Shown here: piece by piece, positions 935 through 37,030 of the stretch
How positions within the stretch are numbered: the first letter of the stretch is position 1
Layout of the letters: every line of letters starts with the position of its first letter
IMG/VR virus record: IMGVR_UViG_2861069343_000007
Coordinates: 1-37,030 of that record
DNA: 37,030 nucleotides
From: a virus
Lineage: Duplodnaviria; Heunggongvirae; Uroviricota; Caudoviricetes
Reading direction: 5' to 3' (one strand)
Position numbers and translations under genes: made by a program
Notes under the pieces: generated by a model
Told to the model about the DNA's origin: nothing
Seen by the model: the letters and a program-made list of their open reading frames with translations, nothing else
Database searches by the model: none

Positions 935-2620
935 GTGAATATAAACGTCGCCGAATTGTTAAATGGGAATTACATTCTGTTATTATTTGTGGTCCTCGCG
1001 CTTGGGCTATGTCTCGGAAAGTTACGACTTGGTTCGATCCAACTGGGTAATTCCATTGGCGTTTTAGTCGTATCGCTGTTATTAGGCCAACAACATTTCA
1101 GCATTAACACCGATGCGCTTAATCTTGGCTTTATGCTGTTTATTTTCTGCGTCGGGGTCGAAGCCGGACCGAACTTTTTTTCCATTTTTTTTCGCGATGG
1201 GAAAAATTACCTAATGTTAGCACTGGTGATGGTTGGCAGTGCGCTGGTGATCGCCTTAGGGTTAGGTAAGCTGTTTGGCTGGGATATTGGCCTGACGGCC
1301 GGTATGTTAGCAGGCTCTATGACGTCGACACCGGTTCTGGTCGGTGCTGGCGATACACTGCGTCATTCCGGCATGGAAAGCAGGCAGCTCTCACTGGCAC
1401 TGGATAATCTGAGCCTCGGGTATGCCTTAACCTATTTAATCGGTCTGGTGAGTTTGATTGTTGGTGCGCGTTACTTGCCGAAATTGCAGCATCAGGACTT
1501 ACAGACCAGCGCCCAGCAAATCGCCCGCGAACGTGGCCTGGACACTGATGCCAACCGTAAGGTTTATTTACCGGTGATCCGCGCCTATCGCGTCGGCCCG
1601 GAACTGGTGGCCTGGACCGACGGCAAAAATCTGCGTGAACTGGGTATTTATCGACAAACCGGCTGCTACATTGAACGTATTCGACGTAACGGGATTCTGG
1701 CAAATCCAGACGGTGATGCCGTGCTACAAATGGGCGATGAAATAGCGTTGGTAGGCTATCCCGACGCCCATGCCCGACTCGATCCCAGCTTCCGTAACGG
1801 TAAAGAAGTTTTCGATCGTGACCTTCTCGACATGCGTATCGTCACTGAAGAAGTGGTCGTTAAAAACCATAACGCTGTAGGTAAACGTCTCGCACAACTG
1901 AAGTTGACCGATCACGGTTGCTTCCTTAACCGCGTCATTCGTAGCCAGATTGAGATGCCGATAGATGACAACGTCGTGCTTAACAAAGGTGACGTTTTAC
2001 AAGTCAGCGGCGATGCCCGCCGCGTAAAAACCATCGCCGATCGCATCGGCTTTATCTCGATTCACAGCCAGGTCACTGACCTGCTGGCATTCTGCGCCTT
2101 CTTTGTTATTGGGCTGATGATCGGGATGATCACCTTCCAGTTCAGCACATTCAGTTTCGGCATGGGGAACGCTGCCGGGTTGTTATTCGCCGGAATTATG
2201 CTGGGCTTTATGCGTGCTAACCACCCGACCTTCGGTTACATTCCGCAAGGTGCATTAAGCATGGTGAAAGAGTTCGGCTTGATGGTGTTTATGGCAGGCG
2301 TTGGTCTGAGCGCCGGTAGCGGTATTAATAACGGCCTGGGCGCGATTGGCGGTCAGATGTTGATTGCCGGATTAATTGTCAGTCTTGTGCCCGTGGTTAT
2401 CTGTTTCTTGTTCGGTGCTTATGTATTGCGAATGAACCGCGCACTGTTGTTCGGCGCAATGATGGGCGCACGCACCTGCGCGCCGGCAATGGAGATCATC
2501 AGTGATACAGCTCGCAGTAACATCCCTGCGCTGGGCTATGCGGGCACCTACGCAATCGCCAACGTCCTGCTGACGCTGGCAGGGACAATCATCGTCATGG
2601 TATGGCCAGGATTAGGATAA
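935..2620 (+). CDS. ybjL: Putative transporter YbjL (AAE family, duplicated membrane domains with central TrkA-C-like region)
   Basis: 561 aa; hydrophobic N- and C-terminal halves around a soluble middle; recognised as E. coli YbjL. Confidence 0.9.
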
Positions 2621-2732
2621 AACTGAAGTTGCCCTGAAAATGAAATTTTTTTGCACAACCGCAGAACTTTTCCGCAGGGCATCAGTCTTAATTAGTGCCA
2701 CTGCTTTTCTTTGATGTCCCCATTTTGTGGAG

Positions 2733-2776
2733 CCCATCAACCCCGCCATTTCGGTTCAAGGTTGATGGGTTTTTTG
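2733..2776 (+). terminator. Rho-independent terminator-like hairpin downstream of ybjL
   Basis: 10-bp stem cccatcaacc / ggttgatggg (2733..2742, 2760..2769) followed by tttttt (2770..2775). Confidence 0.5.
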
Positions 2777-2855
2777 TTGCCTGAAATTTAAGCTATTTAA
2801 AATCATGATGTTAGAAACACTGTTTTTTAACGATGGCGACAAAATGGCGGCAGCG

Positions 2856-3074
2856 TCAAAGAGAGAGCGCCACCTGTCCTGATTTCATTGGATGCGGCTG
2901 AACCGGATTTGACTCTTTTGGCGTTGCAATCGAACGAACAAAAGTTTCATGGGTAACAAAAGTATGGCTGCAGTTAATGTTCTGGCACTGGTTGTAACGC
3001 TCTTTGGTCAATGAAGATACCTGAAAACTGCTGCGAGTATGGGCGGCACTTCCACACAGTGGGCAAATCATCAT
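2856..3074 (-). CDS. ogr: Ogr/Delta-family zinc-finger late-gene activator (P2 Ogr / 186 B)
   Basis: CPLCGSAAH...CQNINCSHTF zinc-finger pattern typical of Ogr; start likely at the internal MM (3074 or 3071) rather than ORF-track 3107. Confidence 0.85.
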   Translation of the reverse strand: MMICPLCGSAAHTRSSFQVSSLTKERYNQCQNINCSHTFVTHETFVRSIATPKESNPVQPHPMKSGQVALSL

Positions 3075-3164
3075 TTTTCGAGCTCTCCCCATTTTTGCTA
3101 AATTCACAATAATGATACCGCATTATTCTATTTTTCAAACTTAAAAGTTCTCCATTGCGAAGAA

Positions 3165-4265
3165 TCATTCCATTTCGAAATCATCAATCCTCACTTCAAG
3201 CTCCAGACTGGTCGTAAAACCGTTATCCGGGCTGACGGTATGCGTCAGAGTCGTAATGGTCCATTCCGCATCATCTATCGGCTGTTTAAAGCCACTGACT
3301 TTCACTGGCATTTCCGTGTAGAGATCTGCCCGCCCTTCCGCCAGTTGTAGCGAGAATGACGCAACGCCGCGTTGCAGGCGTTCCCACTGCATTTTCGCTG
3401 CCCGTTCGGCGTTACTCCGATTAGCATAGGTGCGATTAAGTACCAGCACGTTTTCATCCGTACCCACCAGGTAATCGCCCTGCTTCGCTTCCGGCTCTTT
3501 CTTCTGCTTCTTAGTCCTGCGCTTACGCTTCACCGTGGTGCTTTCTTTCTTCGCGGGTTCGCGGGTATGCAACCAGCTGGCAATTATGCCCGTATAGGCT
3601 CCGCGATCTGCCAGGGTAAAGCGGTGACTGTCGCCGTCCTTACGTGTGATAGTGATCACCGGCAGTGGTTTACCGCTGGCACTTTTGCCCTGTCCCTGCC
3701 GGATGAATAACAGATTGCCATTTTTCACCGACGCAATAGCACCGTACTGGCGCGCCAGCCGCATCAGAAAACTACCGTCACTCTCATTAGTCTGGTCTAT
3801 ATGCTCCACGAGCTTATCCGACAGGTCTTTACCCAGTACCATCTTCAGCTTGTGCCGCGCGGCTATCTCCTTCACCACTTCCCCAATGGTGGTCTTGTGC
3901 CACGATTTTTCACGGCGGGTATTCAGCGTTTCCCGAAAATCAGCACTTCGCGCCCGGATAGTCAGGCGGTCCGGTGCGCCAGTGTGTTCAATCTCGTCCA
4001 CTGTGAATGCCCCTTTCGGGAAAAGCGGCTGCCCCTTCCAGCCCAGCGCCAGCGTAATGACCGCACCACGGCGCGGCAGCACGATTTTTCCGTCAGCGTC
4101 ATCCAACTCCAGATCAAGCTGGTCCGCTTCAAAGCCCCGGTTATCCGTCAGCGTCAAACTCATCAGGCGGTTATCCAGCACAGTGGTGATATCCCTGCCC
4201 TCAATACTGATGCTGAATGCGGGAGTTTTGTTGCCTTTGTTAAGCAGTTCTGAGCTGAAATTCAC
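3165..4265 (-). CDS. D: Tail protein gpD (late control D)
   Basis: 366 aa; position and similarity to P2 gpD; 4-nt overlap with gpU. Confidence 0.85.
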   Translation of the reverse strand: MNFSSELLNKGNKTPAFSISIEGRDITTVLDNRLMSLTLTDNRGFEADQLDLELDDADGKIVLPRRGAVITLALGWKGQPLFPKGAFTVDEIEHTGAPDRLTIRARSADFRETLNTRREKSWHKTTIGEVVKEIAARHKLKMVLGKDLSDKLVEHIDQTNESDGSFLMRLARQYGAIASVKNGNLLFIRQGQGKSASGKPLPVITITRKDGDSHRFTLADRGAYTGIIASWLHTREPAKKESTTVKRKRRTKKQKKEPEAKQGDYLVGTDENVLVLNRTYANRSNAERAAKMQWERLQRGVASFSLQLAEGRADLYTEMPVKVSGFKQPIDDAEWTITTLTHTVSPDNGFTTSLELEVRIDDFEME

Positions 4266-10108: not shown

Positions 10109-10522
10109 TTATCTGCTTGCAGGGAAAACAGGCCAAATGATATCAGGTGCGGTGCTGGTATCTGTTGCCGTCACAGCCTCGATATAATCCAGCACAACGT
10201 TAAGTCGGGTAGTTTCTTCTTGCGTCAGTTTGCGCCCGGCCTGCAGCTTTAACTGAATCACGCTGATATTGGCCATTGCTGCGTCTATCAGCGACTGTTT
10301 TTTCTGTTCAGCGTCAGCTACCAGTTCATTATGAGAACGTTCCGGAGGGAGCGGCGCAGTAAATACCCCGTCTGAATACCCCCAGCCAATTCCGGGATGC
10401 TCACTGATATCAGAAATATCAATGAGCTGCTGATTATCCGGCACTGTGAATTCAGCCTCGCCATCCCAGACAATGACATTCACAACCATCCCATTTTCAA
10501 TAACTGCATATGACGCATTCAT
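10109..10522 (-). CDS. G: Tail fiber assembly protein (gpG/Tfa family)
   Basis: Directly downstream of H; start at MNASYAVIENG where its ATG overlaps the H stop (TAATG). Confidence 0.8.
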   Translation of the reverse strand: MNASYAVIENGMVVNVIVWDGEAEFTVPDNQQLIDISDISEHPGIGWGYSDGVFTAPLPPERSHNELVADAEQKKQSLIDAAMANISVIQLKLQAGRKLTQEETTRLNVVLDYIEAVTATDTSTAPDIIWPVFPASR

Positions 10523-12837
10523 TATGCAAACTCCTCGATAATACAAATCCCTGCAGCGCCTTTCCCGCCCGTCATACTGGTTCCGCTATAACCGGCATCG
10601 TATGCACCACCTCCGCCTGAACCATATGCCTTACCACTAACACCACCGCCAGCGCCTGCGCGTCCACCGCCGCCCCAGTGCGATGTTCCGCCTTCACCGC
10701 TGACGCTGATATTTCCGGACTGACCGTCGCCTCCATCTCCACCAGTGATGCGGATATCGCCAGTACTCGGCACACCTCCGTTACCGCCGTTTGTGTTTGT
10801 AACACCCACTTTCCCGCCGCCTGCGCCACCAGGAGCAATTAACGATGCGAATACGCTATTCCCGCCCCTGGTGCCGTTCGTCGCACTAACACCACCGGCC
10901 CCACCTGCGCCGATAGTGACTGGATAACTATTCTGTGTCGGGGTCATTATTGAAATTATTGTTCCACCGGCCCCACCGCCAGCACCGAAAAACGTTTCAT
11001 TATTGGATGTAGCCTTGCAGCCGCCCCCTCCGCCACCGCCGCCCGTTATTGTGACCCTGAGCCGTTTTGTTCCTGGCGTCGGGATGTACGTACCTGATGA
11101 CGTGAAAACCCTAGTGCTTATCAGGCGCCCAACGTATCCACTTTCATCGCTCAAGCCAAGGTCAGTAGTAGTAGGTTTATTTTTAGTGTTATACGCTCTG
11201 CGCCATCCAGGTGAATAACTTGTGCTGCCAGACACGTTAAACACATAGATAAACTCCGCATTAGTGAGTGCACCAGAGACACTTGTCGTCGTGGCTGTTG
11301 TTATTCGAATAGTGTAATTGTCGGTATTATTGCTGAATACTTCTATCACAGCACCCGTCAGTGGAATAATGCCACAACCAGTTTCACTGTCTGGTATGGA
11401 TGCACTAGTTGCATACGACCATGCACAACGAGCGAACCATGCTTTCGTATTGAATGCCCCATTATTTTGCAACAAAGTAACTAACTGAGCTGTCGTTATT
11501 GACTCACCGTTATTACCTGTTTTTAACCAACCAGTAGGAGATGCCGGGCAACCAATATACTGAATAACCTCCTGTGTGCTTGTTTTAGCCAGAATATCCC
11601 GTCCAACATTAGTCAGTGTTGTCAAGCTGGCTGTATCATTCCCCGTAAAATACGGTAGTTTGTCTGCCGCAGTGGCAAGGCCTGCCAGTGCGGTCAGTGT
11701 GGCGTCGGCAGGTTGTTTTCCATTGGCAAGGTCATATACAGCCTTCACGGCTTTTGGTGTGGCAGCCTGCGTTTCTGACGTGCTGTTAGTGGCGCTGCTG
11801 AGTTGCACGGTGCCTTTTACCGTCAGTGAAGCTGCAGGCACATCCGTTATCTGGCTCCACGGGTGCGTGTGACTGACAGGTGCCTTACCTGCTGCAAGGT
11901 CATATGCCGCCTTCACTGCCTTTGGTGTGGCAGCCTGCGTTTCTGACGTGCTGTTAGTGGCACTGCTGAGTTGCACGGTGCCTTTTACCGTCAGTGAAGC
12001 TACAGGCACATCCGTTATCTGATTCCACGGGTGTGTGTGACTGACAGGTGCCTTACCTGCTGCAAGGTCATATGCCGCCTTCACTGCCTTTGGAGTGGCG
12101 GCCTGCGTTTCTGATGTGCTGTTAGTGGCGCTGCTGAGTTGCACAGTGCCTTTTACCGTCAGCGAGGCTGCAGGTACACCTGTTATCTGATTCCACGGGT
12201 GTGTGTGACTGGCGGATGCTTTACCTGCTGCAAGATCATATGCAGCCTTCACAGCCTTCGGTGTTGCGGCCAGTATTTCGGATTCACTGTTGGTCGCACT
12301 GCTTAACTGAGTAAAACCTTTTGCGGTCAGCGAGGCGTCCGGGTGACGTCGTGACTGTTCGTGCTCTGATATTTTGTCATCCACATACTTGCGAGTTGCC
12401 AGTACTACAGCAGGGTCGATTTTCAGGGTGATATTGTCCGTACTGCTGGTAATCAGCACCATGCGCACGGTCTGGGTGCGCCCGCTGCCTTCAGCCAGTT
12501 GCGGTTTATAGCTTTCCGGGCAGTTCCCCACGGCAATCAATGCCCCTGACTCATCAAACAGGCCCACTTCACGTATCCACCAACCGCCCTCGTTTTCAGG
12601 GATCACCTGTTCAGCAATAATCTGGCTGCTGTTCTGCGGGTCGATATAGAGCATATTCAGTGCAGCCCGGCGTTTCTCATTTACCAGTGCAGTCTGCTTT
12701 GCGTCCGGCGTCGGCAATGCTCCGCCGCCATCGCCCACCGCCATATGGGTAATTTTTAGCGGCACACCAAGCGCGGCGGCGCTGGCAAGTTTCGCCGCGC
12801 CAATATCCGTCAGCAGGGTATAAAATTTTGTGCTCAT
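10522..12837 (-). CDS. H: Tail fiber protein gpH with four tandem fiber repeats and glycine-rich C-terminal domain
   Basis: 771 aa; P2 H-like N-terminus; four ~57-aa repeats (SLTVKGTVQLSSATNSTSETQAATPKAVKAAYDLAAGKAPVSHTHPW); C-terminal ~200 aa rich in GGxGG. Confidence 0.9.
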   Translation of the reverse strand: MSTKFYTLLTDIGAAKLASAAALGVPLKITHMAVGDGGGALPTPDAKQTALVNEKRRAALNMLYIDPQNSSQIIAEQVIPENEGGWWIREVGLFDESGALIAVGNCPESYKPQLAEGSGRTQTVRMVLITSSTDNITLKIDPAVVLATRKYVDDKISEHEQSRRHPDASLTAKGFTQLSSATNSESEILAATPKAVKAAYDLAAGKASASHTHPWNQITGVPAASLTVKGTVQLSSATNSTSETQAATPKAVKAAYDLAAGKAPVSHTHPWNQITDVPVASLTVKGTVQLSSATNSTSETQAATPKAVKAAYDLAAGKAPVSHTHPWSQITDVPAASLTVKGTVQLSSATNSTSETQAATPKAVKAVYDLANGKQPADATLTALAGLATAADKLPYFTGNDTASLTTLTNVGRDILAKTSTQEVIQYIGCPASPTGWLKTGNNGESITTAQLVTLLQNNGAFNTKAWFARCAWSYATSASIPDSETGCGIIPLTGAVIEVFSNNTDNYTIRITTATTTSVSGALTNAEFIYVFNVSGSTSYSPGWRRAYNTKNKPTTTDLGLSDESGYVGRLISTRVFTSSGTYIPTPGTKRLRVTITGGGGGGGGCKATSNNETFFGAGGGAGGTIISIMTPTQNSYPVTIGAGGAGGVSATNGTRGGNSVFASLIAPGGAGGGKVGVTNTNGGNGGVPSTGDIRITGGDGGDGQSGNISVSGEGGTSHWGGGGRAGAGGGVSGKAYGSGGGGAYDAGYSGTSMTGGKGAAGICIIEEFA
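11700..12350 (-). repeat. About four tandem ~171-bp coding repeats inside the tail fiber gene
   Basis: Near-identical DNA units beginning gcaaggtcatat... recur at ~11726, ~11897, ~12068 and (diverged) ~12232. Confidence 0.8.
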
Positions 12838-22499: not shown

Positions 22500-22535
22500 T
22501 TTTAAAACGAAGACCATTAGGTCTTCGCTTTATTT
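22500..22535. terminator. Bidirectional terminator between convergent Q and retron RT
   Basis: 8-bp stem cgaagacc / ggtcttcg (loop atta), flanked by ttttaaaa upstream and ctttattt downstream; RT stop codon lies in the loop. Confidence 0.55.
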
Positions 22536-23479
22536 AAAGGGTTCTTTCCATATTTTTTTTCTAATTTGCTAATATAAGCTATTAATCTTCTATGGCTTTT
22601 TGAATCCACACTTAAAATAAATGACAACCATCCCCTAACGTGTTCTATCTCAGAAGATTTACCGCAAAATATATGATGTATCTTTGCTCTAATTTCTTTA
22701 TATTTTTCTCTACCTATCCCAACTTTCTCTTGTGAAATAACTAAACCTGTAACTTTCCTCTGACTACGAGGCCCACTAATACAAGTTTTTTTTGAGTTAA
22801 TAACCAATCCTTCACTTGGGATTATAGAAAATAAAAAATCACGTGCTTTAACAACCTTTTTCATAGACTGTGCAGATAAGGTGAGATCATCGGCATATCT
22901 CGTATATATCAAGCCCCGACTACCTGCATAGCCCTGAATACGATAATCAAGTTTTGAACATATTAGATTAGCTAATTTAGGTGATGATGGAGCACCTTGT
23001 GGTAGCAGATTTTTATAACAACATATTTTTGTCAAAACTGAAGATATTAGTCGATTATAACCAAGAGAATGGAACACTCCAAAAACTTTGTTAGCAGTTA
23101 AACTTGGGAAAAAATCCTCCAAATCAATATTCAGTATAAAGTTTGCCCCAATATGCGGGGTAGCATTATTCAAAATAGATTGGTGCTTTTCAAATCCAAT
23201 AGAAAAAGGAGATGACGACAGTTTATCTAAAATGTTACGTAGAACCCATCCTTGTAAGGCTTTAAGTTCTCGAGAAGGTTGGTAAATGGTTCTCATTCTC
23301 TTCTCTGGGCCTTTCTTTTCTACAGTGTAGATCCTATAGCGAAAATCAGCTGTATAGATTAACAACCGAAGTGTTTCAACAGATATGCGAGTCGCCTTAG
23401 ACATGTCATGCAAATTGTTCATGACAGGTAGGCCGAGATTTCTCAATCTAAAAGTGTTCAAATATTCAGCGGATTTCAT
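22517..23479 (-). CDS. ret: Retron reverse transcriptase (Retron-Eco1 / Ec86 RT)
   Basis: 320 aa; RT motifs including YADD (YTRYADDLTL); start codon 7 nt downstream of the a2 repeat of msr-msd. Confidence 0.93.
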   Translation of the reverse strand: MKSAEYLNTFRLRNLGLPVMNNLHDMSKATRISVETLRLLIYTADFRYRIYTVEKKGPEKRMRTIYQPSRELKALQGWVLRNILDKLSSSPFSIGFEKHQSILNNATPHIGANFILNIDLEDFFPSLTANKVFGVFHSLGYNRLISSVLTKICCYKNLLPQGAPSSPKLANLICSKLDYRIQGYAGSRGLIYTRYADDLTLSAQSMKKVVKARDFLFSIIPSEGLVINSKKTCISGPRSQRKVTGLVISQEKVGIGREKYKEIRAKIHHIFCGKSSEIEHVRGWLSFILSVDSKSHRRLIAYISKLEKKYGKNPLNKAKT

Positions 23480-23485
23480 GAAAGT

Positions 23486-23654
23486 TGCGCACCCTTACGT
23501 CAGAAAAAACGGGTTTCCTGGTTGGCTCGGAGAGCATCAGGCGATGCTCTCCGTTCCAACAAGGAAAACAGACAGTAACTCAGATTCAATGCAGGATGCC
23601 GAAACAACATCCAGAGGTTGACCTTAATGATAAACCTCTCGCTAAGGGTGCGCA
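23486..23654 (-). ncRNA. msr-msd: Retron msr-msd non-coding RNA (Ec86 msDNA template)
   Basis: Plus strand 23499..23585 reads gtcagaaaaaacgggtttcctggttggctcggagagcatcaggcgatgctctccgttccaacaaggaaaacagacagtaactcaga, recognised as Ec86 msd; flanking inverted repeats a1/a2 TGCGCACCCTTA at 23643..23654 and 23486..23497. Confidence 0.9.
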
Positions 23655-24565
23655 TACGGAATCTTATCATAGTTAAATGTTGATTTTCTACGGTTTTCAA
23701 AATTCATAATCTCAAGCCGCAATCGGTCAAGTGTCTTTCTATCAAAGACGCTCCTAACATAGCTAGCCCCCAAAGCAGTGACCTGATAACCATCAGTCAT
23801 TTGAAGTATTTTTCGTTCATTTATTAGACGAGAAACAACGGATCTAACAATAATTTTAGATAAAACATCATCTTGCTTTATCGCTTTAAAAGCTAGTTCA
23901 CACAGTGTGCGGTAGTTGACACTATCCAGTAAATAGATACAAGGCAATAGAAACCGCTCTGCGTATAATATATTTCCAATATCTTTTGATACTTTATTTT
24001 CTTTCCTAACCTGCTTAATAGATGCCATTAATTTTTTATATAATCGTAATTTTCTGGCAACATCAATAGATGAATCACACATTTCTTTTAGTTCATTTGA
24101 ACTACAACGCAAAACAGATTTTGAATTAAACTTACGCAACAGGCGAACAGGACCATAGTTAATAAAGCTACGTTTTGATTTAAATTTTGCATCTTGAATG
24201 CAAATCAACTTTCTCCTTAAGTTTTCATTATTAGAGAACGCACCAAGCTCTGTGAAAGACCCCGGACTTTCAGGAAATAAAATTATTACATCGACAGCTT
24301 CAGCCAGAATATTTTCTAAACTTAAAAGGCTATGCTGCCCTTGACCAGCCAAAAGATCATCAAATAGATCTTCTGGATAAAATATATCAACATCACTGAA
24401 CTTTGCTAAAAATTGTGATAATTGATGACGCCAAGATTGATGATTAGCAACGTCACCACCACATAGAAAAATGGTTATTTTAATATTAGCTCCTCGATAG
24501 AAGCCTTTCTTTGTGAGATGTCCTATAAGCTGTTGTTGCTGCTCATCGGTAAATTTTTTATTCAT
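23642..24565 (-). CDS. Retron-Eco1 accessory effector (nucleoside deoxyribosyltransferase-like domain protein)
   Basis: Immediately upstream of msr; start assigned to MNKKFTDEQ (ATG 24565..24563, GGAG 4 nt upstream) though in-frame ATGs exist upstream (24595, 24754); stop overlaps a1. Confidence 0.75.
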   Translation of the reverse strand: MNKKFTDEQQQQLIGHLTKKGFYRGANIKITIFLCGGDVANHQSWRHQLSQFLAKFSDVDIFYPEDLFDDLLAGQGQHSLLSLENILAEAVDVIILFPESPGSFTELGAFSNNENLRRKLICIQDAKFKSKRSFINYGPVRLLRKFNSKSVLRCSSNELKEMCDSSIDVARKLRLYKKLMASIKQVRKENKVSKDIGNILYAERFLLPCIYLLDSVNYRTLCELAFKAIKQDDVLSKIIVRSVVSRLINERKILQMTDGYQVTALGASYVRSVFDRKTLDRLRLEIMNFENRRKSTFNYDKIPYAHP

Positions 24566-24637
24566 AATCTCCCCGCTTTTTTCTACTTTATACATCAAGT
24601 TATGAATAGATCCAATCTCCATACCCCATGGCGCGCG

Positions 24638-24656
24638 CTCGTATCCCCGCCACGCC
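24638..24656. other. Candidate cos site (cohesive end)
   Basis: Minus strand reads GGCGTGGCGGGGATACGAG, resembling the P2 cohesive end GGCGAGGCGGGGAAAGCAC as recalled; inside a short GC-rich patch between two AT-rich islands. Confidence 0.4.
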
Positions 24657-24697
24657 TGCCCGCTTTGTGTAGTGGTTTTCATGCACCTGCATGACAT

Positions 24698-24722
24698 AAG
24701 TAAAAGCCCGCCAGAACTGGCG
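24698..24722 (-). terminator. Hairpin with U-tract on the minus strand in the cos-proximal region
   Basis: cccgccag..ctggcggg stem (24706..24722) followed on the minus strand by a T-run. Confidence 0.35.
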
Positions 24723-24874
24723 GGACTGAGCAAAAACGATCCTTTTGCGATCATTCATTTTCATGCGCTATAGTCATGCAACAAACGCATACGAACCATA
24801 TGGTTAGATTACTCATCAAGTCAGATGGATTTTCAGGCAGATTGCCACAGCAATTGTAAAGGAGCGAGATTGAA

Positions 24875-25876
24875 ATGGGTGGAGAGACTTCGGCTATACA
24901 ACGAGTCGCGGGTAAGATTTCTGATGATATTTTCTCAGTGTTCAAATGGGATCGTGCCGCTAGAGCGGACATGAATTGGGATTGTTGCCAAGAGGCTCAT
25001 TCCAAGAAAACACATCCAAGCGATGTTGTATTTTTCTACATAGATCCATATGAGGAGGAAATGGTCTATCTCAACACAGACCTCAAAAGCTATGCAGAAG
25101 GTACTATTGGGAAAAAAATAGTCGAGGGAGCTTTAACATCGCTTGCTTTAGCTACCGAATGTGCAAATGTCAGTGAAGAATGGCGATTGAAATATGTTCA
25201 TGATGATTCTTTAGGTTATAACGTAAGAGGGTTATTATTCTTATATAACCATGATAATTTATATGATAAAGACTTCTATGAGAATATTACAAAAAAATTA
25301 GATCACTCATCTATAAATTGCCCTCCAAACATCAAACTACATTTGCTTGACCCTTATAAAATATCAGATTTGATAAACATATCTTCTGACATAACTAAGT
25401 TAATTGGTTCAGGCAAACTTCCTCAACCTGATAAGTTCACATATTATTATCCAGATCTTTCCCTAACAAGAATAAAGCACCCTATTAATCAGACAACACC
25501 TGCAACAATTGAATTATTAACATCACCATACATTATAATAAAGCATGAGGCTTTCAGTTGGCTCAGGGATAAAAACCCTGAGGGATATGTTGTTTATTAC
25601 AATCAACCGGGGGATTCAGTAGACGAATTCGTTTACTTCTTTGATATGTTATCAACTTATCAGATATTAACCGAAGGTAAACCAATCGTATTACGCCATT
25701 GTCACATTCACCCAAATGAAAATGCCATTCATCATTTTGAAAGAGCGAAAAAGAAATACAGCACAGACTGGCTCTTAGGCGAGGATGAAAGACTTTTTCT
25801 TAAAATTGACTTCGACAAGACAGACAAAATTGTTGTTGAATATAATCTTGAACAAATCGGCATGGAGCAACGATAA
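24875..25876 (+). CDS. Hypothetical protein, first gene of three-gene cargo operon
   Basis: 333 aa; AGGAG upstream; AT-rich codon usage unlike the phage backbone; no family recognised by eye; possible PD-(D/E)xK-like pattern VVFFYID…NTDLK (speculative). Confidence 0.7.
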   Translation: MGGETSAIQRVAGKISDDIFSVFKWDRAARADMNWDCCQEAHSKKTHPSDVVFFYIDPYEEEMVYLNTDLKSYAEGTIGKKIVEGALTSLALATECANVSEEWRLKYVHDDSLGYNVRGLLFLYNHDNLYDKDFYENITKKLDHSSINCPPNIKLHLLDPYKISDLINISSDITKLIGSGKLPQPDKFTYYYPDLSLTRIKHPINQTTPATIELLTSPYIIIKHEAFSWLRDKNPEGYVVYYNQPGDSVDEFVYFFDMLSTYQILTEGKPIVLRHCHIHPNENAIHHFERAKKKYSTDWLLGEDERLFLKIDFDKTDKIVVEYNLEQIGMEQR

Positions 25877-26955
25877 TGGCTAAAAAACTATATTTCGCAA
25901 CTGATAAAAATATTTATGATGCATTACATCATAAAAGGATAACCGCTGCAAAGTTGCATGAATTATTGTTGAATCGAGGTGTGTTTTTATCACCAGAACT
26001 CGACAAGGAAATACTAATCGAGGAAATATCCAAACTTCCTCACGGATTTAATGAATTAGAACACATAAAAAAACTGGTCAAAACATATGACCCAAGGGAA
26101 AGCACTACTAGTGTGAGCTTCCAAACCTCAACAAATCAGGCCGAATTAAAAAGTGCTGCTGAAGCACTAAAAAAAACATGCTCCCCTAGTAAAGGTCAAA
26201 GCCTGAATATTGTAGCTAAAAAAGATGGCTCGCTTACAGTAGAATACAAATATGAAGAAATAGACCTGTCTAAAACTGCATTACGTCAGATCGACAAGCG
26301 GAATGTTATAATAGAACTTCGCCCTGGAGCTGACAAAGTTGAAGTACGTATGCCTCAAAACCCCGAGGCAAAAAAAGTTATTGAGAGCTTGCAAAACGAG
26401 CTATCTAAAATCAAGTCCGAACCTATCGAGCGCTTCGAAATATCATTACTAGCAATAACTGATCCTACATTGCGAAGTCAGTTTTTTCAGGAATTAATGA
26501 ATGGTCTACGCGGTTATGAGACTGATGACGTAACAAAAGTCGAATTAAATCGCAGTACTGATGCTAGTGAGGATGAAGACAAGGAAGAAACTATTGATAC
26601 CGGATTTGTTAAGAAAGCTGTCCTTAATGGTGAAGGGGTAAATAGTTCAGCTATATTTTCTCAACTACATGAGAAAGGTTATTATATCGGGCGTATTGCA
26701 TGGTCTTCAAAGCCGACAAGTGGAATTGGAGACAGAATCAACGTCGAAGCATTTTTCAAAGACTCAGAAAAATGCTGTGACTTTGCCTATCAAATTAAAG
26801 GTATAAACAATCAAAAAGAAGACGGTTTCAATGTAACCATTCGCGCGGCAACAGCACAAGAGAAAAAACATATTAGTGAATTAATTGAGTCCGCCGCTGA
26901 AAATGCCTATAATATAATAATAGGATCAGAGGTGAACGAAGATGAAAAAGGTTAA
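25876..26955 (+). CDS. Hypothetical protein, second gene of three-gene cargo operon
   Basis: 359 aa; start overlaps upstream stop (TAATG); charged and Lys/Glu-rich; no recognisable motif. Confidence 0.7.
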   Translation: MAKKLYFATDKNIYDALHHKRITAAKLHELLLNRGVFLSPELDKEILIEEISKLPHGFNELEHIKKLVKTYDPRESTTSVSFQTSTNQAELKSAAEALKKTCSPSKGQSLNIVAKKDGSLTVEYKYEEIDLSKTALRQIDKRNVIIELRPGADKVEVRMPQNPEAKKVIESLQNELSKIKSEPIERFEISLLAITDPTLRSQFFQELMNGLRGYETDDVTKVELNRSTDASEDEDKEETIDTGFVKKAVLNGEGVNSSAIFSQLHEKGYYIGRIAWSSKPTSGIGDRINVEAFFKDSEKCCDFAYQIKGINNQKEDGFNVTIRAATAQEKKHISELIESAAENAYNIIIGSEVNEDEKG

Positions 26956-27625
26956 ATGGCTTAAGTTAAACATACGGCTTGAGTTTGAAACAGCCGTTAG
27001 ACGTCTTTCTCTTGATTCTTTTACAGAGGATAAAGGGAAAGGGTTCATTTTTGATAAAATACGCCATGATTTTGCAAATGGTCGCTTTGTCGAGCGTATT
27101 GTTTATCATGATAAAATATTAAGCTTTGACGGAAGCGAAACTACCGTTGAAAGAATCGAATATCGCACCACAAATTTTAGCGTGGCTTTAGACTCTCTTC
27201 CTGTAATGCAGATTACTAACCCACCCAGAACTTTAAAGCCTTTTTCGCAGGCTTTGGTAAAAAATCTTGGCTTAGGTGTTAGTTTGGAAGAAATTGACAT
27301 AAACCCTATAGACTGGCTTAATGAAATATCTTCAAGTGTAAATATCAATTTAACACAACTTGATATTTCAAGGGTTAGAGTTTCTGATTACGCCACAGCT
27401 AAAATGCAAATAATTGGCAGCAATGATCTTAGGAAGTATTATAAAGAAGAATTAGAGGGTAAAAAAATAAGAATTGACAGGCTTGTTTGCTCTGTTAATT
27501 CATTAGAATATTCCGGTAAGCTCAAGATCACCAATAGCGGCCTTGCTTATATTGATGTTAGAAATGAGAATGAGTTTACGAAAATCGTTTTTGATACGTT
27601 AAAAAAAGTCACCCTTCAATCATAG
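26942..27625 (+). CDS. Hypothetical protein, third gene of three-gene cargo operon
   Basis: 227 aa; 14-nt overlap with upstream gene; no recognisable motif. Confidence 0.7.
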   Translation: MKKVKWLKLNIRLEFETAVRRLSLDSFTEDKGKGFIFDKIRHDFANGRFVERIVYHDKILSFDGSETTVERIEYRTTNFSVALDSLPVMQITNPPRTLKPFSQALVKNLGLGVSLEEIDINPIDWLNEISSSVNINLTQLDISRVRVSDYATAKMQIIGSNDLRKYYKEELEGKKIRIDRLVCSVNSLEYSGKLKITNSGLAYIDVRNENEFTKIVFDTLKKVTLQS

Positions 27626-33436: not shown

Positions 33437-33640
33437 TTAAGCAGACAAAGCATCAACAGTCAGAGCAGCCAGGTTAATCATTACCTTTTCACGTTTTTTG
33501 TCTTTACGAAGACGATGACGAGGTAGTCGGCCATCAGCCAACATATCGTTAATCGTATCAATAGAAAGGCCAGTCAGTTCGCTATAACGTTCGATTGTGA
33601 CATGTGGTGTATTCAGAGTAATTGAAATGTTAGGTGTCAT
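33437..33640 (-). CDS. apl: Apl/Cox-like excisionase-repressor (HTH)
   Basis: 67 aa; HTH-like segment; first gene of the lytic transcript, opposing cI. Confidence 0.65.
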
Positions 33641-33785: not shown

Positions 33786-34355
33786 GTGGATTTCAATAGC
33801 GGCGGTAAGAAAACCATAGAACGTTTGGTTGAAGCATACGGGTTCGGTACCCGTCAGGCTCTCTGTGATCATTTAGGTGTTTCTAAGAGCACCATGGCAA
33901 CGCGTTATATGCGTGATATTTTTCCGGCAGATTGGGTAATCCAGTGCGCCCTTGAAACGGGTACCTCGCTTAATTGGCTAACAACAGGGCATGGTTCAAA
34001 GCAAGCATCAGCAAATACAAATACTATAGAAGTAGTAAAATATTTATTGTCTGATGGAGCATTGCAGGAAGACGGTTTTTATATTTTTGATAAGGGATTT
34101 CTACCCTCTACGTTTAAAAAACCTTTTGTCATCACAGATAACAATTCTGAATTTATTTGTGATAAAGAATTTGATGATATACGTGATGGTAAATGGGTAA
34201 TAAGTATTGATGGCGAAATAACAATCCGCGACATCACTCGTTTACCCGGTGGAAGAATTTTCGTTGAAGGTGGAAACAGAGCCTTCGAGTGCAAGATAGA
34301 AGATGTTGAAATAATTGGAAAAATTATAAGCTTAACAGTTAAGTATGTTAGATAA
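33786..34355 (+). CDS. cI: CI immunity repressor (186 type)
   Basis: Resembles 186 CI (…EAYGF…CALETG…NWLTTGHG…); start placed at GTG 33786 with GGAGG 6 nt upstream (ORF-track ATG 33699 would add 29 aa). Confidence 0.8.
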   Translation: MDFNSGGKKTIERLVEAYGFGTRQALCDHLGVSKSTMATRYMRDIFPADWVIQCALETGTSLNWLTTGHGSKQASANTNTIEVVKYLLSDGALQEDGFYIFDKGFLPSTFKKPFVITDNNSEFICDKEFDDIRDGKWVISIDGEITIRDITRLPGGRIFVEGGNRAFECKIEDVEIIGKIISLTVKYVR

Positions 34356-34370
34356 TACCTGGAGGAAACT

Positions 34371-34553
34371 ATGCTTGGTAAGTTTTTTTTTGTGGTTTTA
34401 TCATGCTCTTTGCTATTAAACCCACTAACTACCTATGCTAAAAATTATCCTTGTTCTGGGAAAAAGGGAGGTGTCTCTCACTGTACCTCTGATGGAAAAT
34501 TTGTTTGCAATGATGGAACCATCAGTAAATCCAAAAAAACATGCATCAAATAA
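34371..34553 (+). CDS. Small secreted cysteine-containing protein
   Basis: 60 aa; N-terminal signal peptide, four Cys in mature part; GGAGG Shine-Dalgarno; AT-rich. Confidence 0.55.
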
Positions 34554-34566
34554 TAAGGAAATATGA

Positions 34567-35898
34567 ATGAGCACAGATATAACTTTCGATATACGTGATG
34601 AATATAAAAGAAAAGCCATTGCAGAAAAAATAATAAGTTTGCTAGAGTCTAATATTCCTGTTTCACCTATGGTCATAGATGGGGACTGGGGGACTGGAAA
34701 AACAGAGTTTTCAAAAAAGTTAGCATCCTTAATTGAAATAAACTCGACCAATCATAAAGTAATTTATATAGATGCTTTTACTGAAGATCACAACGATGCT
34801 CCCATACTTACAATAATGGCCGCAATTGCAGCTCTATATAATAGCGATGAAAAAAAGGAATTAATATCTAAGGCATTGCCAGCCCTCAGATTCGGACTTA
34901 AGACTGTACTCAAAGCTGGTGCTGGTTGGGTATTAAAACAAAATGCGGATGAAATTAATAAGGAATTTGAAGAGGTTATCAAAGACGCTGCAAATTCAGC
35001 TATCGATGGAACCATCGAGGCTCTGTTAGAAGATCATATCGAGGCACAAAAGAACGTTCTTGCTCTAAAAGAAGTACTAACCAAATTAGCTGGAGAAAGT
35101 AAACTAACAATAATTATAGATGAGTTAGACAGATGTAAGCCTAGTTTTGCCATTTCTATTATTGAAAATATAAAACATGTTTTTGATATAAAAAACATTA
35201 ACTTTTTATTAATTGCAAACACAACTCAACTAAAAGCATCCATAAATCATATCTATGGCTCTTCTGTAGACTCCAACCGTTATCTTGACAAATTTATAAA
35301 ATTTACATACAGCCTTCCTGTTACCTTTAAGGAAGATAATTATAATGATACTTTAACTTCCAAAAATCATTGGATGATGCTATGTGAGCAATCTGAAAGG
35401 CTGACCGCTGCAGTAGAAGCCAGCGAAGATATTTTCTTACAGTTCATTGAAAGTAGAAAATTATCATTACGTGAGGTTGAAACACTTGCTAGATATGTTG
35501 AAATATACCAACTACTATCAGGCGACAAAATTAGCAACAAATATATTTATGGATATTGTTATTACAGGACTCTAGCGATAATAATCTACACTTTTAACCG
35601 AGAGTTAGCTCTCAACTTTCTTGAAGATAAAGTTGATGCTCAATCAATCATGAAATTGTTTGGTTTATCTAAATTTTCATATCAAACAAGTGAATATAAT
35701 GTAGATAATTATGAATATGCTATATTTGGAATAGTTTACAAATACTTATCTGAAAACTCATCTCTTTTACCTGCTGAGGAAAATATAAAAAGACAATGGG
35801 CAGAAATGAGTGAATACCATTTTTTAAAAGGTGGTGGCGGTATTGGTGAACCAACAAATATTGTGAAAGATGCTTTAAAAGTTTTTTTACTTCAGTGA
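34567..35898 (+). CDS. KAP-family P-loop NTPase
   Basis: 443 aa; Walker A GDWGTGKTEF and Walker B IIIDELDRCKP in KAP NTPase arrangement; AT-rich; between cI and int. Confidence 0.8.
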   Translation: MSTDITFDIRDEYKRKAIAEKIISLLESNIPVSPMVIDGDWGTGKTEFSKKLASLIEINSTNHKVIYIDAFTEDHNDAPILTIMAAIAALYNSDEKKELISKALPALRFGLKTVLKAGAGWVLKQNADEINKEFEEVIKDAANSAIDGTIEALLEDHIEAQKNVLALKEVLTKLAGESKLTIIIDELDRCKPSFAISIIENIKHVFDIKNINFLLIANTTQLKASINHIYGSSVDSNRYLDKFIKFTYSLPVTFKEDNYNDTLTSKNHWMMLCEQSERLTAAVEASEDIFLQFIESRKLSLREVETLARYVEIYQLLSGDKISNKYIYGYCYYRTLAIIIYTFNRELALNFLEDKVDAQSIMKLFGLSKFSYQTSEYNVDNYEYAIFGIVYKYLSENSSLLPAEENIKRQWAEMSEYHFLKGGGGIGEPTNIVKDALKVFLLQ

Positions 35899-35977: not shown

Positions 35978-37030
35978 ATGGCAGTACGAAAACTCACCAC
36001 AGGAAAATGGCTTTGCGAATGTTACCCCGCCGGACGTAGTGGACGTCGTGTGCGTAAACAATTCGCCACCAAAGGCGAAGCTCTGGCTTTTGAGCGTCAC
36101 ACGATGGAAGAAACCGAAGCAAAGCCCTGGCTGGGTGAATCAGTGGATCGTCGAACACTGAAAGACGTGGTTGAACTATGGTTCAAACTACATGGTAAAT
36201 CTCTGACTGCTGGGCAGCATGTCTATGACAAATTGCTGCTGATGGCTGACGCTCTGGGCAATCCCCTTGCAACCGATCTCACATCTAAAATGTTTGCCCA
36301 TTATCGAGATAAACGACTGACAGGTGAGATCTACTTCAGCGAGAAATGGAAGAAAGGAGCCAGCCCGGTCACCATTAACCTGGAGCAAAGCTATCTAAGT
36401 AGTGTTTTTAGCGAACTATCCCGTCTGGGCGAATGGTCGTATCCGAACCCACTGGAGAACATGCGAAAATTCACCATCGCAGAAAAAGAGATGGCATGGC
36501 TTACCCATGAGCAGATTGTTGAATTACTGGCTGATTGCAAACGTCAGGACCCAATTCTGGCACTGGTAGTTAAGATATGCTTAAGCACAGGCGCACGCTG
36601 GCGAGAAGCCGTAAATCTTACTCGTTCACAGGTGACCAAATACCGAATTACCTTTGTCAGAACGAAGGGGAAGAAAAACAGAAGCATCCCTATCAGTAAA
36701 GAGCTTTACGAAGAGATCATGGCGCTTGATGGGTTCAATTTCTTCACAGACTGCTATTTTCAATTTTTATCCGTGATGGAAAAAACGTCTATCGTGCTCC
36801 CTCGCGGTCAACTGACACACGTTCTGCGCCATACGTTTGCGGCGCACTTCATGATGTCGGGTGGAAACATCCTGGCCTTACAAAAAATTCTCGGACACCA
36901 CGATATAAAAATGACTATGCGTTACGCACATCTGGCACCGGATCATCTGGAAACGGCGCTCCGTTTCAATCCTCTGGCAACATTGCCAAGTGGCGACAAA
37001 GTGGCGGCAGCGGTTGGCATTACCCCGTAA
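35978..37030 (+). CDS. int: Tyrosine integrase (P2/186 family)
   Basis: Start at MAVRKLTTGKWLCECYP (GGAGGG upstream); C-terminal catalytic region …HVLRHTFA…MTMRYAHLAPDHL…; stop at window end. Confidence 0.9.
   Translation: MAVRKLTTGKWLCECYPAGRSGRRVRKQFATKGEALAFERHTMEETEAKPWLGESVDRRTLKDVVELWFKLHGKSLTAGQHVYDKLLLMADALGNPLATDLTSKMFAHYRDKRLTGEIYFSEKWKKGASPVTINLEQSYLSSVFSELSRLGEWSYPNPLENMRKFTIAEKEMAWLTHEQIVELLADCKRQDPILALVVKICLSTGARWREAVNLTRSQVTKYRITFVRTKGKKNRSIPISKELYEEIMALDGFNFFTDCYFQFLSVMEKTSIVLPRGQLTHVLRHTFAAHFMMSGGNILALQKILGHHDIKMTMRYAHLAPDHLETALRFNPLATLPSGDKVAAAVGITP

What the first reader, a model, noticed from the sequence alone, without database searches (positions are those of the whole stretch)
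2621..2855. Prophage-host junction (attR) downstream of ybjL
Host synteny grxA-ybjM-ybjL ends at 2620 and the phage late activator gene begins at 2856, so the right attachment-site core must lie in this 235-bp interval. No tRNA gene is evident, implying integration into a non-tRNA site. The other junction is outside the window, so the core repeat cannot be identified here.
Basis: inference. Interest (0 to 1): 0.4.

Follow-up and report, generated by a model that had tools for sequence, protein, structure and literature searches.

The report
Prophage junction at rybB small-RNA gene
The interval does hold the right-hand junction of a P2/186-like prophage, but the phage sits in the terminator of the host small-RNA gene rybB, a documented and very common integration site, so the finding is correct and ordinary.

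Summary
Confirmed, refined, and already known. Host DNA does not stop at 2620. It runs on, identical to E. coli K-12, through an intact rybB small-RNA gene (about 2697-2778, +; Rfam RybB 105 bits). The attachment core is ATGGGTTTTTTGTT (2765-2778), the last 7 nt of the RybB terminator stem plus its U-tract. Compared with O157:H7-type empty sites it extends to 26 bp (2765-2790). From 2791 to 2855 is the phage P' arm, ending in two 186-type integrase arm sites (TGGCGACA/TGGCGGCA, 2834-2852) that abut the ogr stop codon. An almost identical pair lies in the last codons of int (36991-37012). This was checked four ways: an empty K-12 site, the int-side junction of related lysogens (core 74 nt past the int stop, so 75 nt beyond the window end), a contiguous attP in Klebsiella phage KP12, and the att sites annotated in Klebsiella phage 4LV2017. 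About 1,114 of 5,426 complete E. coli genomes carry this junction and 4,197 have the empty site. The literature already lists 'rybB ncRNA' as a P2-like prophage insertion site. The phage carries a copy of the rybB 3' end, so integration rebuilds the gene, as with tRNA-targeting phages. Interest is low. The retron Ec86, Rst_3HP and KAP-NTPase cargo was noted in passing.

The parts
935..2620 (+). ybjL (aspartate:alanine antiporter), the last host protein gene before the junction
   Evidence: ORF list. RefSeq annotation of a near-identical region.
2621..2696 (+). Host ybjL-rybB spacer carrying a sigma-E-type promoter for rybB (GAACTT 2664-2669, 16-nt spacer, TCTTA 2686-2690, start G at 2697)
   Evidence: Identical to K-12. 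The promoter assignment comes from reading the sequence against the sigma-E consensus known from the literature; it was not tested here. The stretch also folds into a stable hairpin (z = -3.1).
2697..2778 (+). rybB small-RNA gene, intact
   Evidence: Rfam RF00110 RybB, 105.3 bits (gathering score 40), E = 7e-21, model positions 1-79 of 79 at 2700-2778. The sequence is identical to K-12. The terminator hairpin spans 2731-2771 and is followed by a U-tract (-25.2 kcal/mol, z = -3.3).
2765..2778 (.). Minimal att core ATGGGTTTTTTGTT. It is invariant in attB, attP, attL and attR. It comprises the last 7 nt of the 3' strand of the RybB terminator stem plus the U-tract.
   Evidence: Four-way comparison: K-12 and 1919D3 empty sites, this window, attL of three E. 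coli lysogens, attP of Klebsiella phage KP12, and attL/attR of phage 4LV2017. It occurs once in the window; 0.03 occurrences are expected by chance.
2765..2790 (.). Extended common core ATGGGTTTTTTGTTGCCTGAAATTTA (26 bp). It is identical between attP and the empty site of O157:H7-type E. coli. K-12-type hosts differ at 4 of the last 12 positions (atCTaAAAcTTA).
   Evidence: A 71-nt synthetic empty-site query containing these 26 bp matches O157:H7 genomes at 100% and K-12 at 94.4%. attL host flanks in other genera also read gcctgaaatt. The 19-nt attR annotated in NC_047818 corresponds to window 2765-2783.
2791..2855 (.). Phage-specific P' arm of the att site, lying between the core and the ogr stop codon
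   Evidence: Absent from empty sites. Present next to the core in the contiguous attP of phage KP12 and in 33 P2-like phage records.
2834..2855 (+). P' arm-type integrase binding sites: two direct repeats, TGGCGACA (2834-2841) and TGGCGGCA (2845-2852), 11 bp apart
   Evidence: A 22-nt direct repeat with 36991-37012, 21 of 22 identical (family D18). The pattern TGGCGRCANNNTGGCGRCA matches twice in the window; 0.01 matches are expected. The repeat is conserved in KP12 and 4LV2017. Its reverse complement, TGCCGCCAttt/TGTCGCCAtcg, fits the 186-type arm consensus tgccGCCActt of PMC3448106.
2856..3074 (-). ogr (late-gene activator), the last phage gene at this end of the prophage
   Evidence: Pfam Ogr_Delta PF04606, E = 5e-22. 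RefSeq annotation.
33437..33640 (-). Cox/Apl-like excisionase and repressor, the probable recombination directionality factor acting at attR/attL
   Evidence: PHROG 575 'Cox-like excisionase and repressor', E = 1e-29.
35978..37030 (+). int, a tyrosine integrase (350 aa). The window ends at its stop codon.
   Evidence: Pfam Int_N PF24624 (E = 2e-32) and Phage_integrase PF00589 (E = 7e-22). It is 99% identical to the integrases of Klebsiella and E. coli P2-like phages and 36.6% identical to P2 Int. The N-terminus reads W11/E14/Y16, the 186-type arm-binding discriminators of PMC3448106.
36991..37012 (+). P arm-type integrase binding sites (TGGCGACA / TGGCGGCA), lying inside the last codons of int
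   Evidence: In the contiguous attP of KP12 they start 114 nt upstream of the core.

Best explanation
Window 2621-2855 is the attR junction of a roughly 34.3-kb P2/186-like (Peduoviridae) prophage integrated into the 3' end of the host sRNA gene rybB. The phage attP sits between the convergent int and ogr genes. It carries a copy of the last 14 nt of rybB (terminator stem 3' end plus U-tract, ATGGGTTTTTTGTT), and up to 26 nt when the sequence just downstream of rybB is included. The phage tyrosine integrase binds this core with its central and C-terminal domains. Its N-terminal domain binds two pairs of 186-type arm sites (TGGCGRCA x2), one pair on each attP arm. Strand exchange then occurs inside the shared core. 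Because core and target are identical, integration rebuilds an intact rybB with its terminator at attR, which is this window. At attL the phage's own hairpin plus T-tract stays behind int. Excision would need Int plus the Cox/Apl-like protein encoded at 33437-33640, and probably IHF. Shown here: the position and sequence of core and arms, their conservation, the intact rybB, and the integrase and RDF homologies. Inferred: the binding assignments, the exact cleavage positions, and the need for IHF and Cox.
For: (1) Window 2621-2778 is identical to prophage-free K-12. After ATGGGTTTTTTGTT, K-12 continues into the rcdA stop codon while the window continues into phage DNA.
(2) In related lysogens the int-side junction reads phage P arm + ATGGGTTTTTTGTT + the K-12-type rcdA flank.
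(3) Klebsiella phage KP12 has int stop, 74 nt, the same core, P' arm and ogr stop contiguously. This equals the attL phage arm joined to window 2779-2855.
(4) The NC_047818 record annotates attL and attR with the same core next to Klebsiella rybB.
(5) Rfam RybB scores 105 bits at 2700-2778, and the fold shows that the core is the terminator's 3' half plus the U-tract.
(6) The arm repeat occurs twice in the window against 0.01 expected, is conserved in the phages, and fits the published 186-type consensus. Int also carries the matching W/E/Y N-terminal residues.
(7) Int, Cox-like, CI and Ogr family matches.
(8) 1,114 of 5,426 complete E. coli genomes have the same ybjL-rybB-ogr junction, 1,113 have this int, and 4,197 have an uninterrupted empty site.
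(9) The same P arm + core + gcctgaaatt junction follows int orthologues in at least eight other enterobacterial genera.
(10) Archer et al. 2011 (PMC3032704) list 'rybB ncRNA' as the insertion site of P2-like prophages in E. coli W, B and Crooks. Nilsson et al. 2011 (PMC3448106) group PhiECO1/2/3 at one shared site, and the CFT073 coordinates of that site abut rcdA.
Against: The window's own attL is not available, because the window ends 75 nt short of it and its genome is not in the complete-genome set (best int match 98.9%). The direct repeat for this particular prophage is therefore inferred from relatives. The exact crossover positions cannot be read from sequence: anywhere in 2765-2778 for a K-12-type host, or 2765-2790 for an O157-type host. 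No inverted-repeat core half-sites are obvious beyond TAAAT...ATTTA. Nothing here shows that this prophage can still excise.
Confidence: 0.95

Rival explanations
1. The 22-nt repeat TGGCGACAAARTGGCGGCAGCG (2834-2855 and 36991-37012) is itself the duplicated att core. On this view the prophage ends at 2834 and 37012, and the last codons of int are host-derived.
For: It is the only long terminal direct repeat visible inside the window. Its copies sit at the two extremities, one abutting ogr and one inside the 3' end of int.
Against: Prophage-free genomes contain neither copy nor anything from 2791-2855; K-12 runs straight from the rybB terminator into rcdA. In the contiguous attP of phage KP12 both copies are present, 183 nt apart and flanking the real core. 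In lysogens another 74 nt of phage DNA follow the int stop before host DNA resumes. The repeat also matches the published arm-site consensus.
Confidence: 0.01
2. The junction is a fossil. The element is a fixed, defective prophage remnant, vertically inherited, and the att sequences are no longer substrates for recombination.
For: No experiment here shows excision. E. coli B's prophage at this site is reported as defective; this is from my own knowledge and was not checked here. The site is occupied in a fifth of genomes.
Against: The window shows a full-length P2-type gene set from ogr to int, with an intact int, a Cox-like gene and CI. The core and both arm-site pairs are intact and nearly identical to those of phage records. 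The same int/att module occurs in many genera with differing host flanks, and the cargo next to int differs between lysogens. Both points indicate ongoing mobility.
Confidence: 0.1
3. The insertion arose by homologous or illegitimate recombination at a T-rich terminator rather than by integrase-mediated site-specific recombination at a dedicated site.
For: The invariant identity is short (14 bp) and low in complexity (a T-tract) in K-12-type hosts.
Against: The breakpoint is identical to the nucleotide in every lysogen examined and across genera. The half-site just outside the identity is conserved at 8 of 12 positions in K-12 and 12 of 12 in O157-type hosts. A dedicated integrase with arm sites flanks the core in attP.
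Confidence: 0.01

Closest known systems
P2-like prophages at the 'rybB ncRNA' site of E. coli W, B and Crooks (Rybb*W, Rybb*B, Rybb*Cr; Archer et al. 2011, PMC3032704), and PhiECO1/2/3 of E. coli HS, ATCC 8739 and CFT073 (Nilsson et al. 2011, PMC3448106)
   Same: Same chromosomal site between ybjL-rybB and rcdA. Same type of phage, with a 186-type CI, Cox/Apl and Int. A BL21-derived strain shares the ogr junction at 98.6% identity (H5). Rybb*B also carries retron Ec86, as this window does.
   Different: Not identical to any of them: the best genome match for the int 3' region is 98.9%. The cargo between cI and int differs between lysogens: a KAP NTPase here, a DUF4041 protein or other genes elsewhere.
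Klebsiella phages 4LV2017 (NC_047818, Elveevirus) and KP12 (OM835953)
   Same: Integrase about 99% identical. P' arm and ogr 98% identical. Same core, annotated as attL and attR beside Klebsiella rybB. KP12 shows the contiguous attP.
   Different: Different host genus. In Klebsiella the attL/attR identity runs 19-20 nt (ATGGGTTTTTTGTTGCCTG), against 14 or 26 nt in E. coli depending on lineage.
Coliphage 186 Int/attP/Apl system
   Same: Arm-type direct repeats matching the 186 consensus tgccGCCActt. W/E/Y discriminator residues in the Int N-terminus. CI-type repressor and Cox/Apl-type RDF. The core duplicates the 3' end of a structured-RNA gene so that the gene survives integration.
   Different: Per PMC3448106, 186 targets a tRNA-Ile gene with a long core. 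This phage targets an sRNA gene with a short core. Identity to 186 Int was not measured here.
P2 and relatives at the cyaR (ryeE) sRNA locus, and Fels-2/SopEPhi at ssrA
   Same: These are other P2-like phages whose attB is listed at a non-tRNA RNA gene ('cyaR RNA' and 'ssrA tmRNA' rows of Table 2 in PMC3032704; ssrA in PMC3448106). The principle is the same.
   Different: Different integrases and cores. P2 Int is only 36.6% identical, and P2 uses the tgTGGaCa arm consensus.

Membership tests
Heterobivalent tyrosine-integrase attachment site (lambda/P2/186 type) | A tyrosine recombinase gene adjacent to attP, with a catalytic domain and an N-terminal/core-binding domain | tested here: met
   PF00589 (E = 7e-22) and PF24624 Int_N (E = 2e-32). 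The motifs ARWRE, HVLRHT, LGHHD and RYAH are readable in the translation. int ends 74 nt before the core in relatives.
Heterobivalent tyrosine-integrase attachment site (lambda/P2/186 type) | A core sequence shared by attP, attB, attL and attR | tested here: met
   ATGGGTTTTTTGTT is present in all four kinds of site. It extends to 26 bp against O157-type attB. The window's own attL was not available.
Heterobivalent tyrosine-integrase attachment site (lambda/P2/186 type) | At least two direct arm-type repeats on each side of the core in attP | tested here: met
   TGGCGACA-N3-TGGCGGCA at 2834-2852 (P') and 36991-37009 (P). Two matches were found against 0.01 expected. Both flank the core in KP12 attP. 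They fit the 186-type consensus.
Heterobivalent tyrosine-integrase attachment site (lambda/P2/186 type) | A recombination directionality factor (Cox/Apl/Xis) encoded by the phage | tested here: met
   The 67-aa protein at 33437-33640 matches PHROG 575 'Cox-like excisionase and repressor', E = 1e-29. Its binding sites at att were not identified.
Heterobivalent tyrosine-integrase attachment site (lambda/P2/186 type) | Demonstrated Int/IHF-dependent recombination and mapped cleavage sites | not testable with these tools
   Only near-consensus IHF-like motifs were seen by eye: AATCATGATGTTA at about 2812-2824, and the repeated AACTTATTGTTTT in the P arm of relatives. Their significance was not assessed.
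RybB sRNA gene (Rfam RF00110) | A match to the covariance model above the gathering score, with the terminator hairpin and U-tract | tested here: met
   105.3 bits against a gathering score of 40, full length 1-79. The fold gives -25.2 kcal/mol, z = -3.3. The sequence is 100% identical to K-12.
RybB sRNA gene (Rfam RF00110) | A sigma-E-dependent promoter upstream | tested here: inconclusive
   GAACTT-N16-TCTTA-N6-G at 2664-2697 fits the sigma-E consensus as I recall it and is identical to K-12. No tool here scores sigma-E promoters (one search covers sigma-70 only).
tRNA/tmRNA-gene integration site | The core overlaps the 3' end of a tRNA or tmRNA gene | tested here: not met
   ARAGORN finds 0 tRNA or tmRNA genes in the window. 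The overlapped gene is an Hfq-type sRNA gene, not a tRNA-like one. It works like a tRNA site (the gene's 3' end is duplicated in attP) but is not one.
P2-like (Peduoviridae) prophage | ogr and late genes at one end, int with cI and cox/apl at the other, P2-type gene order | tested here: met
   Ogr_Delta, CI, Cox-like and CII-like family matches. The D and tail genes are annotated in the near-identical lysogen. The closest phage records are classified as Peduoviridae.

The most novel reading that the evidence does not exclude
The evidence does not exclude that targeting the RybB terminator has a regulatory consequence beyond preserving the gene. Integration replaces everything downstream of the U-tract and places ogr convergent only 78 nt away. 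Read-through from the strongly sigma-E-induced rybB promoter would then be antisense to the phage late activator, and the changed 3' context could alter RybB termination or the Hfq-binding tail. This would link envelope stress to prophage late-gene control, or prophage carriage to RybB dosage. No data here support this, and the RybB sequence itself is unchanged.
Probability: 0.04. Interest if true: 0.45.

Novelty: already known. Interest (0 to 1): 0.12.

Why it matters
It matters mainly for annotation. The 235-bp 'gap' between ybjL and ogr should be annotated as the rybB gene, a 14-26-bp att core and the phage P' arm with its integrase arm sites. The prophage boundary should be set at 2779-2791, not 2621 or 2856. 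It is a clean textbook case of a temperate phage using the 3' end of an Hfq-dependent sRNA gene the way others use tRNA genes. The same int/att module is spread over many enterobacterial genera and occupies about a fifth of complete E. coli genomes. None of this is new: the rybB site is listed in published genome comparisons, and the att sites are annotated in a public phage record.

Tried and rejected
1. I treated the 22-nt terminal direct repeat (D18) as a candidate att core. It was rejected because empty sites lack it and the contiguous attP contains both copies flanking the real core. It is reinterpreted as arm-type Int sites.

2. I looked for the window's own genome to read its attL. The best int match among 5,426 complete genomes is 98.9%, so attL had to be taken from relatives.

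3. I followed up a tandem triplication of [ybjL 3' end-rybB-core] in the Nissle 1917 record CP007799. A first junction search was uninformative because BLAST pieces were joined. A shorter junction query showed that only that one record has the joint as a single piece, so it is probably an assembly artefact and not a property of the site.

4. I asked whether the K-12-type attB variant (4 mismatches in the right half-site) protects against integration. It does not: lysogens with K-12-type attL flanks are common, including BL21.

5. An Rfam search for a retron msr family at 24300-25000 found nothing. The Ec86 msr-msd was instead located at 23486-23654 by its terminal inverted repeats.

6. The sigma-70 promoter and terminator scan of 2500-3200 found nothing relevant. 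Its terminator rule misses the RybB hairpin because the loop is too long.

7. Literature searches for a dedicated study of this Int/att system found only genome-comparison papers. One search failed on a term that was too short.

Full report
**What is at the coordinates**

The window starts with host genes grxA (1-258, +), ybjM (288-665, -) and ybjL (935-2620, +). On the minus strand, ogr occupies 2856-3074 (Pfam Ogr_Delta; RefSeq annotation of a 99.9% identical region). P2-type late genes follow it. The far end of the window holds a 186-type cI (33786-34355), a Cox/Apl-like gene (33437-33640, -) and a tyrosine integrase (35978-37030, +). The integrase stop codon is the last base of the window. 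ARAGORN finds no tRNA or tmRNA gene.

**The interval is not empty**

Rfam places a full-length RybB sRNA at 2700-2778 on the plus strand (105.3 bits, gathering score 40, E = 7e-21). The 5' end known from the literature (GCCACUGC) would put the gene at 2697-2778.
- The RNA fold gives the expected terminator hairpin at 2731-2771, followed by UUUUUUGUU.
- Upstream, GAACTT-N16-TCTTA (2664-2690) looks like the sigma-E promoter known for rybB. This comes from reading the sequence against remembered consensus and was not tested.
- The whole of 2621-2778 is identical to prophage-free E. coli K-12.
- Host DNA therefore does not end at 2620.

**Locating the junction**

A search with window 2300-3100 hit 5,418 of 5,426 complete E. 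coli genomes. In 1,114 of them the match runs through into ogr. In the rest it stops at query position 479-491, which is window 2778-2790.
- In K-12 (XL1-Blue) the sequence reads ...GGTTGATGGGTTTTTTGTT|atctaaaacttatCTA, where CTA is the rcdA stop codon on the other strand.
- The window reads ...GGTTGATGGGTTTTTTGTT|gcctgaaatttaagctattt....
- In the lysogen NZ_AP021890 the int-side junction reads int stop, 74 nt...cgtttacataaATGGGTTTTTTGTT|atctaaaacttatcta-rcdA. Two further E. coli lysogens show the same.
- ATGGGTTTTTTGTT (window 2765-2778) is thus the sequence common to attB, attL and attR.
- It occurs once in the window, against 0.03 occurrences expected by chance.
- If this prophage is like its relatives, its attL core starts 75 nt beyond the window end.

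**Confirmation from phage records**

Window 2779-3110 matches 33 P2-like Klebsiella phage records at 95-99% identity or better.
- In Klebsiella phage KP12 the int and ogr genes are convergent and 165 bp apart. The spacer reads P arm (as at attL) + ATGGGTTTTTTGTT + gtctgaaattta... (as in window 2779-2855). This is a contiguous attP equal to the one reconstructed from the two junctions.
- The record for Klebsiella phage 4LV2017 includes host flanks. It annotates attR as atgggttttttgttgcctg immediately after Klebsiella rybB, and attL with the same sequence after int. That annotated attR corresponds to window 2765-2783.

**Extent of the core**

The 12 nt after the invariant 14-mer are gcCTgAAAtTTA in the phage and atCTaAAAcTTA in K-12-type hosts, a match at 8 of 12 positions.
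- A synthetic empty-site query carrying the phage-type 12-mer matches O157:H7 genomes at 100% and K-12 at 94.4%.
- It covers at least 80% of the query in 4,197 genomes, which I take as empty sites.
- Downstream of int orthologues (75-93% identical) in Silvania, Enterobacter, Raoultella, Citrobacter, Kluyvera, Dryocola and Buttiauxella, the host side of attL again begins gcctgaaatt. Serratia and Yersinia show slight variants.
- The full common core is therefore about 26 bp (2765-2790). The K-12-type site is a diverged but still used target, because lysogens with that flank, including BL21, are common.
- The strand-exchange region must lie within 2765-2778 for K-12-type hosts. It cannot be placed more precisely from sequence alone.

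**The arms**

The only terminal direct repeat visible within the window is TGGCGACAAAATGGCGGCAGCG (2834-2855, abutting the ogr stop) and TGGCGACAAAGTGGCGGCAGCG (36991-37012, inside the last codons of int).
- Each copy is itself two direct repeats, TGGCGRCA, spaced 11 bp apart. The combined pattern occurs twice in the window against 0.01 expected.
- Both copies are phage DNA, and both flank the core in KP12 attP: 114 nt upstream and 69 nt downstream, start to start.
- Nilsson et al. 2011 (PMC3448106) report that P2-like phages have at least two direct arm repeats on each side of the core. The consensus is tgTGGaCa for the P2 type or tgccGCCActt for the 186 type.
- The reverse complement here, TGCCGCCAttt/TGTCGCCAtcg, fits the 186 type.
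- The same paper names N-terminal discriminator residues: Y/D/R for the P2 type and W/E/Y for the 186 type. This Int has W11, E14 and Y16 with the right spacing.
- The repeat is therefore best read as the Int arm-type binding sites, not the core.

**Mechanism**

Shown here:
- the anatomy of attR and of the reconstructed attP;
- identity of the core with the RybB terminator's 3' half plus the U-tract;
- an unchanged rybB in the lysogen;
- a heterobivalent-type integrase and a Cox-like RDF in the same prophage.

Inferred from the established behaviour of P2/186/lambda-type systems:
- Int bridges arm and core sites, probably with IHF bending the arms.
- Int exchanges strands within the shared core.
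- Integration regenerates rybB at attR, because the phage supplies an identical 3' end.
- The phage hairpin ACCCGTTTA-CAT-AAATGGGT plus T-tract remains behind int at attL, plausibly as its terminator.
- Excision requires the Cox/Apl-like protein.

This is the tRNA-gene strategy applied to an sRNA gene.

**Comparison with what is known**
- Archer et al. 2011 (PMC3032704, Table 2) list 'rybB ncRNA' as the insertion site of P2-type prophages in E. coli W, B and Crooks, and note that the E. coli B element carries retron Ec86.
- Nilsson et al. 2011 assign PhiECO1/2/3 (E. coli HS, ATCC 8739 and CFT073) and PhiSEN1 to one shared integration site.
- The CFT073 coordinates start 17 bp after rcdA, with a phage integrase next to it. 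This ties that site to the rybB-rcdA spacer.
- The Int is 99% identical to those of several deposited phages and 36.6% identical to P2 Int.
- The finding is therefore a correct identification of a known, common att site. Its novelty is nil apart from the exact coordinates.

**Rivals**
- The 22-mer as core is refuted (see 'The arms').
- Illegitimate recombination at a T-tract is contradicted by nucleotide-identical breakpoints across lysogens and genera.
- Whether this particular prophage is still excision-competent cannot be decided here. All att and recombination components are intact.

**Side observations**
- The prophage carries a complete retron Ec86 (Retron-Eco1). Its RT lies at 22517-23479 (-), scoring 710 bits over all 320 residues of the PDB 7v9u chain.
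- The retron msr-msd lies at 23486-23654 (-), between TGCGCACCCTTA inverted repeats. An NDT_II-A effector lies at 23642-24754 (-).
- An Rst_3HP system (Hp1-3) lies at 24875-27625.
- A KAP-family NTPase matching PADLOC candidate PDC-S20 lies at 34567-35898, between cI and int. Relatives carry other genes at this position.
- A tandem triplication of ybjL'-rybB-core appears in one Nissle 1917 assembly. It is unique to that record and probably an artefact.

Noticed in passing
window 22517-24754 (- strand): Complete retron Ec86 (Retron-Eco1, type II-A) inside the prophage. The RT at 22517-23479 scores 710 bits full-length against the PDB Ec86 RT. The msr-msd ncRNA lies at 23486-23654, between TGCGCACCCTTA inverted repeats. 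The NDT_II-A effector ORF lies at 23642-24754. Rfam reported no retron family here.
   Followed up: yes
window 24875-27625 (+ strand): Three consecutive genes match PADLOC Hp1, Hp2 and Hp3 end to end (E = 1e-239, 3e-248, 2e-157). I take these to be the three-gene Rst_3HP anti-phage system of P2-like hotspots. They have no Pfam domains. They sit back to back with the retron, so this region is a two-system defence island.
   Followed up: partly
window 34371-35898 (+ strand): Between cI and int lie a 60-aa cysteine-rich small protein with a signal-like N-terminus (PHROG 6000, unknown function) and a 443-aa KAP-family P-loop NTPase (Pfam PF07693; PADLOC candidate PDC-S20, E = 7e-171). Relatives carry a DUF4041 protein or other genes at this position, so cI-int is a variable cargo slot.
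   Followed up: partly
window 36991-37012: The P-arm integrase arm-type sites lie inside the integrase's own coding sequence (codons for GDKVAAA). Int would therefore bind the 3' end of its own gene.
   Followed up: partly
L001 2966-2991 vs window 2765-2790; one search hits H146 and H165: The empty rybB-rcdA site is polymorphic in E. coli. The O157:H7 type is identical to attP over 26 bp. The K-12 type differs at 4 of the last 12 positions, yet is still occupied in many lysogens. Occupancy by variant or phylogroup was not tabulated. About 100 genomes fit neither the 'empty' nor the 'this prophage' class.
   Followed up: partly
L008 (NZ_CP007799.1, E. coli Nissle 1917) 2983-4033: Two extra tandem copies (about 508 bp each) of the ybjL 3' end + rybB + 26-bp core, plus a 30-bp mini-duplication of the core preceded by 'ttaa'. 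The joint is present as a single piece in only this one record out of 5,426 genomes, so it is probably an assembly artefact.
   Followed up: yes
window 11709-12303: Three tandem copies of a 168-nt unit (92% and 83% identity to the first copy) inside the 771-aa minus-strand ORF at 10522-12837, presumably a tail-fibre gene with repeated domains.
   Followed up: no
window 2622-2686: The ybjL-rybB spacer folds into a long, stable hairpin (-22.9 kcal/mol, z = -3.1) that spans the putative sigma-E -35 element. It may be the ybjL terminator or a regulatory structure.
   Followed up: no
L003/L004/L009/L010, P arm about 20-60 nt upstream of the core (outside the window): A direct repeat AACTTATTGTTTT(T/C)A occurs twice, 20 nt apart, in the P arm of attP, between the Int arm sites and the core. 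Each copy is a near match to the IHF consensus, but they could instead be Cox/Apl boxes.
   Followed up: no
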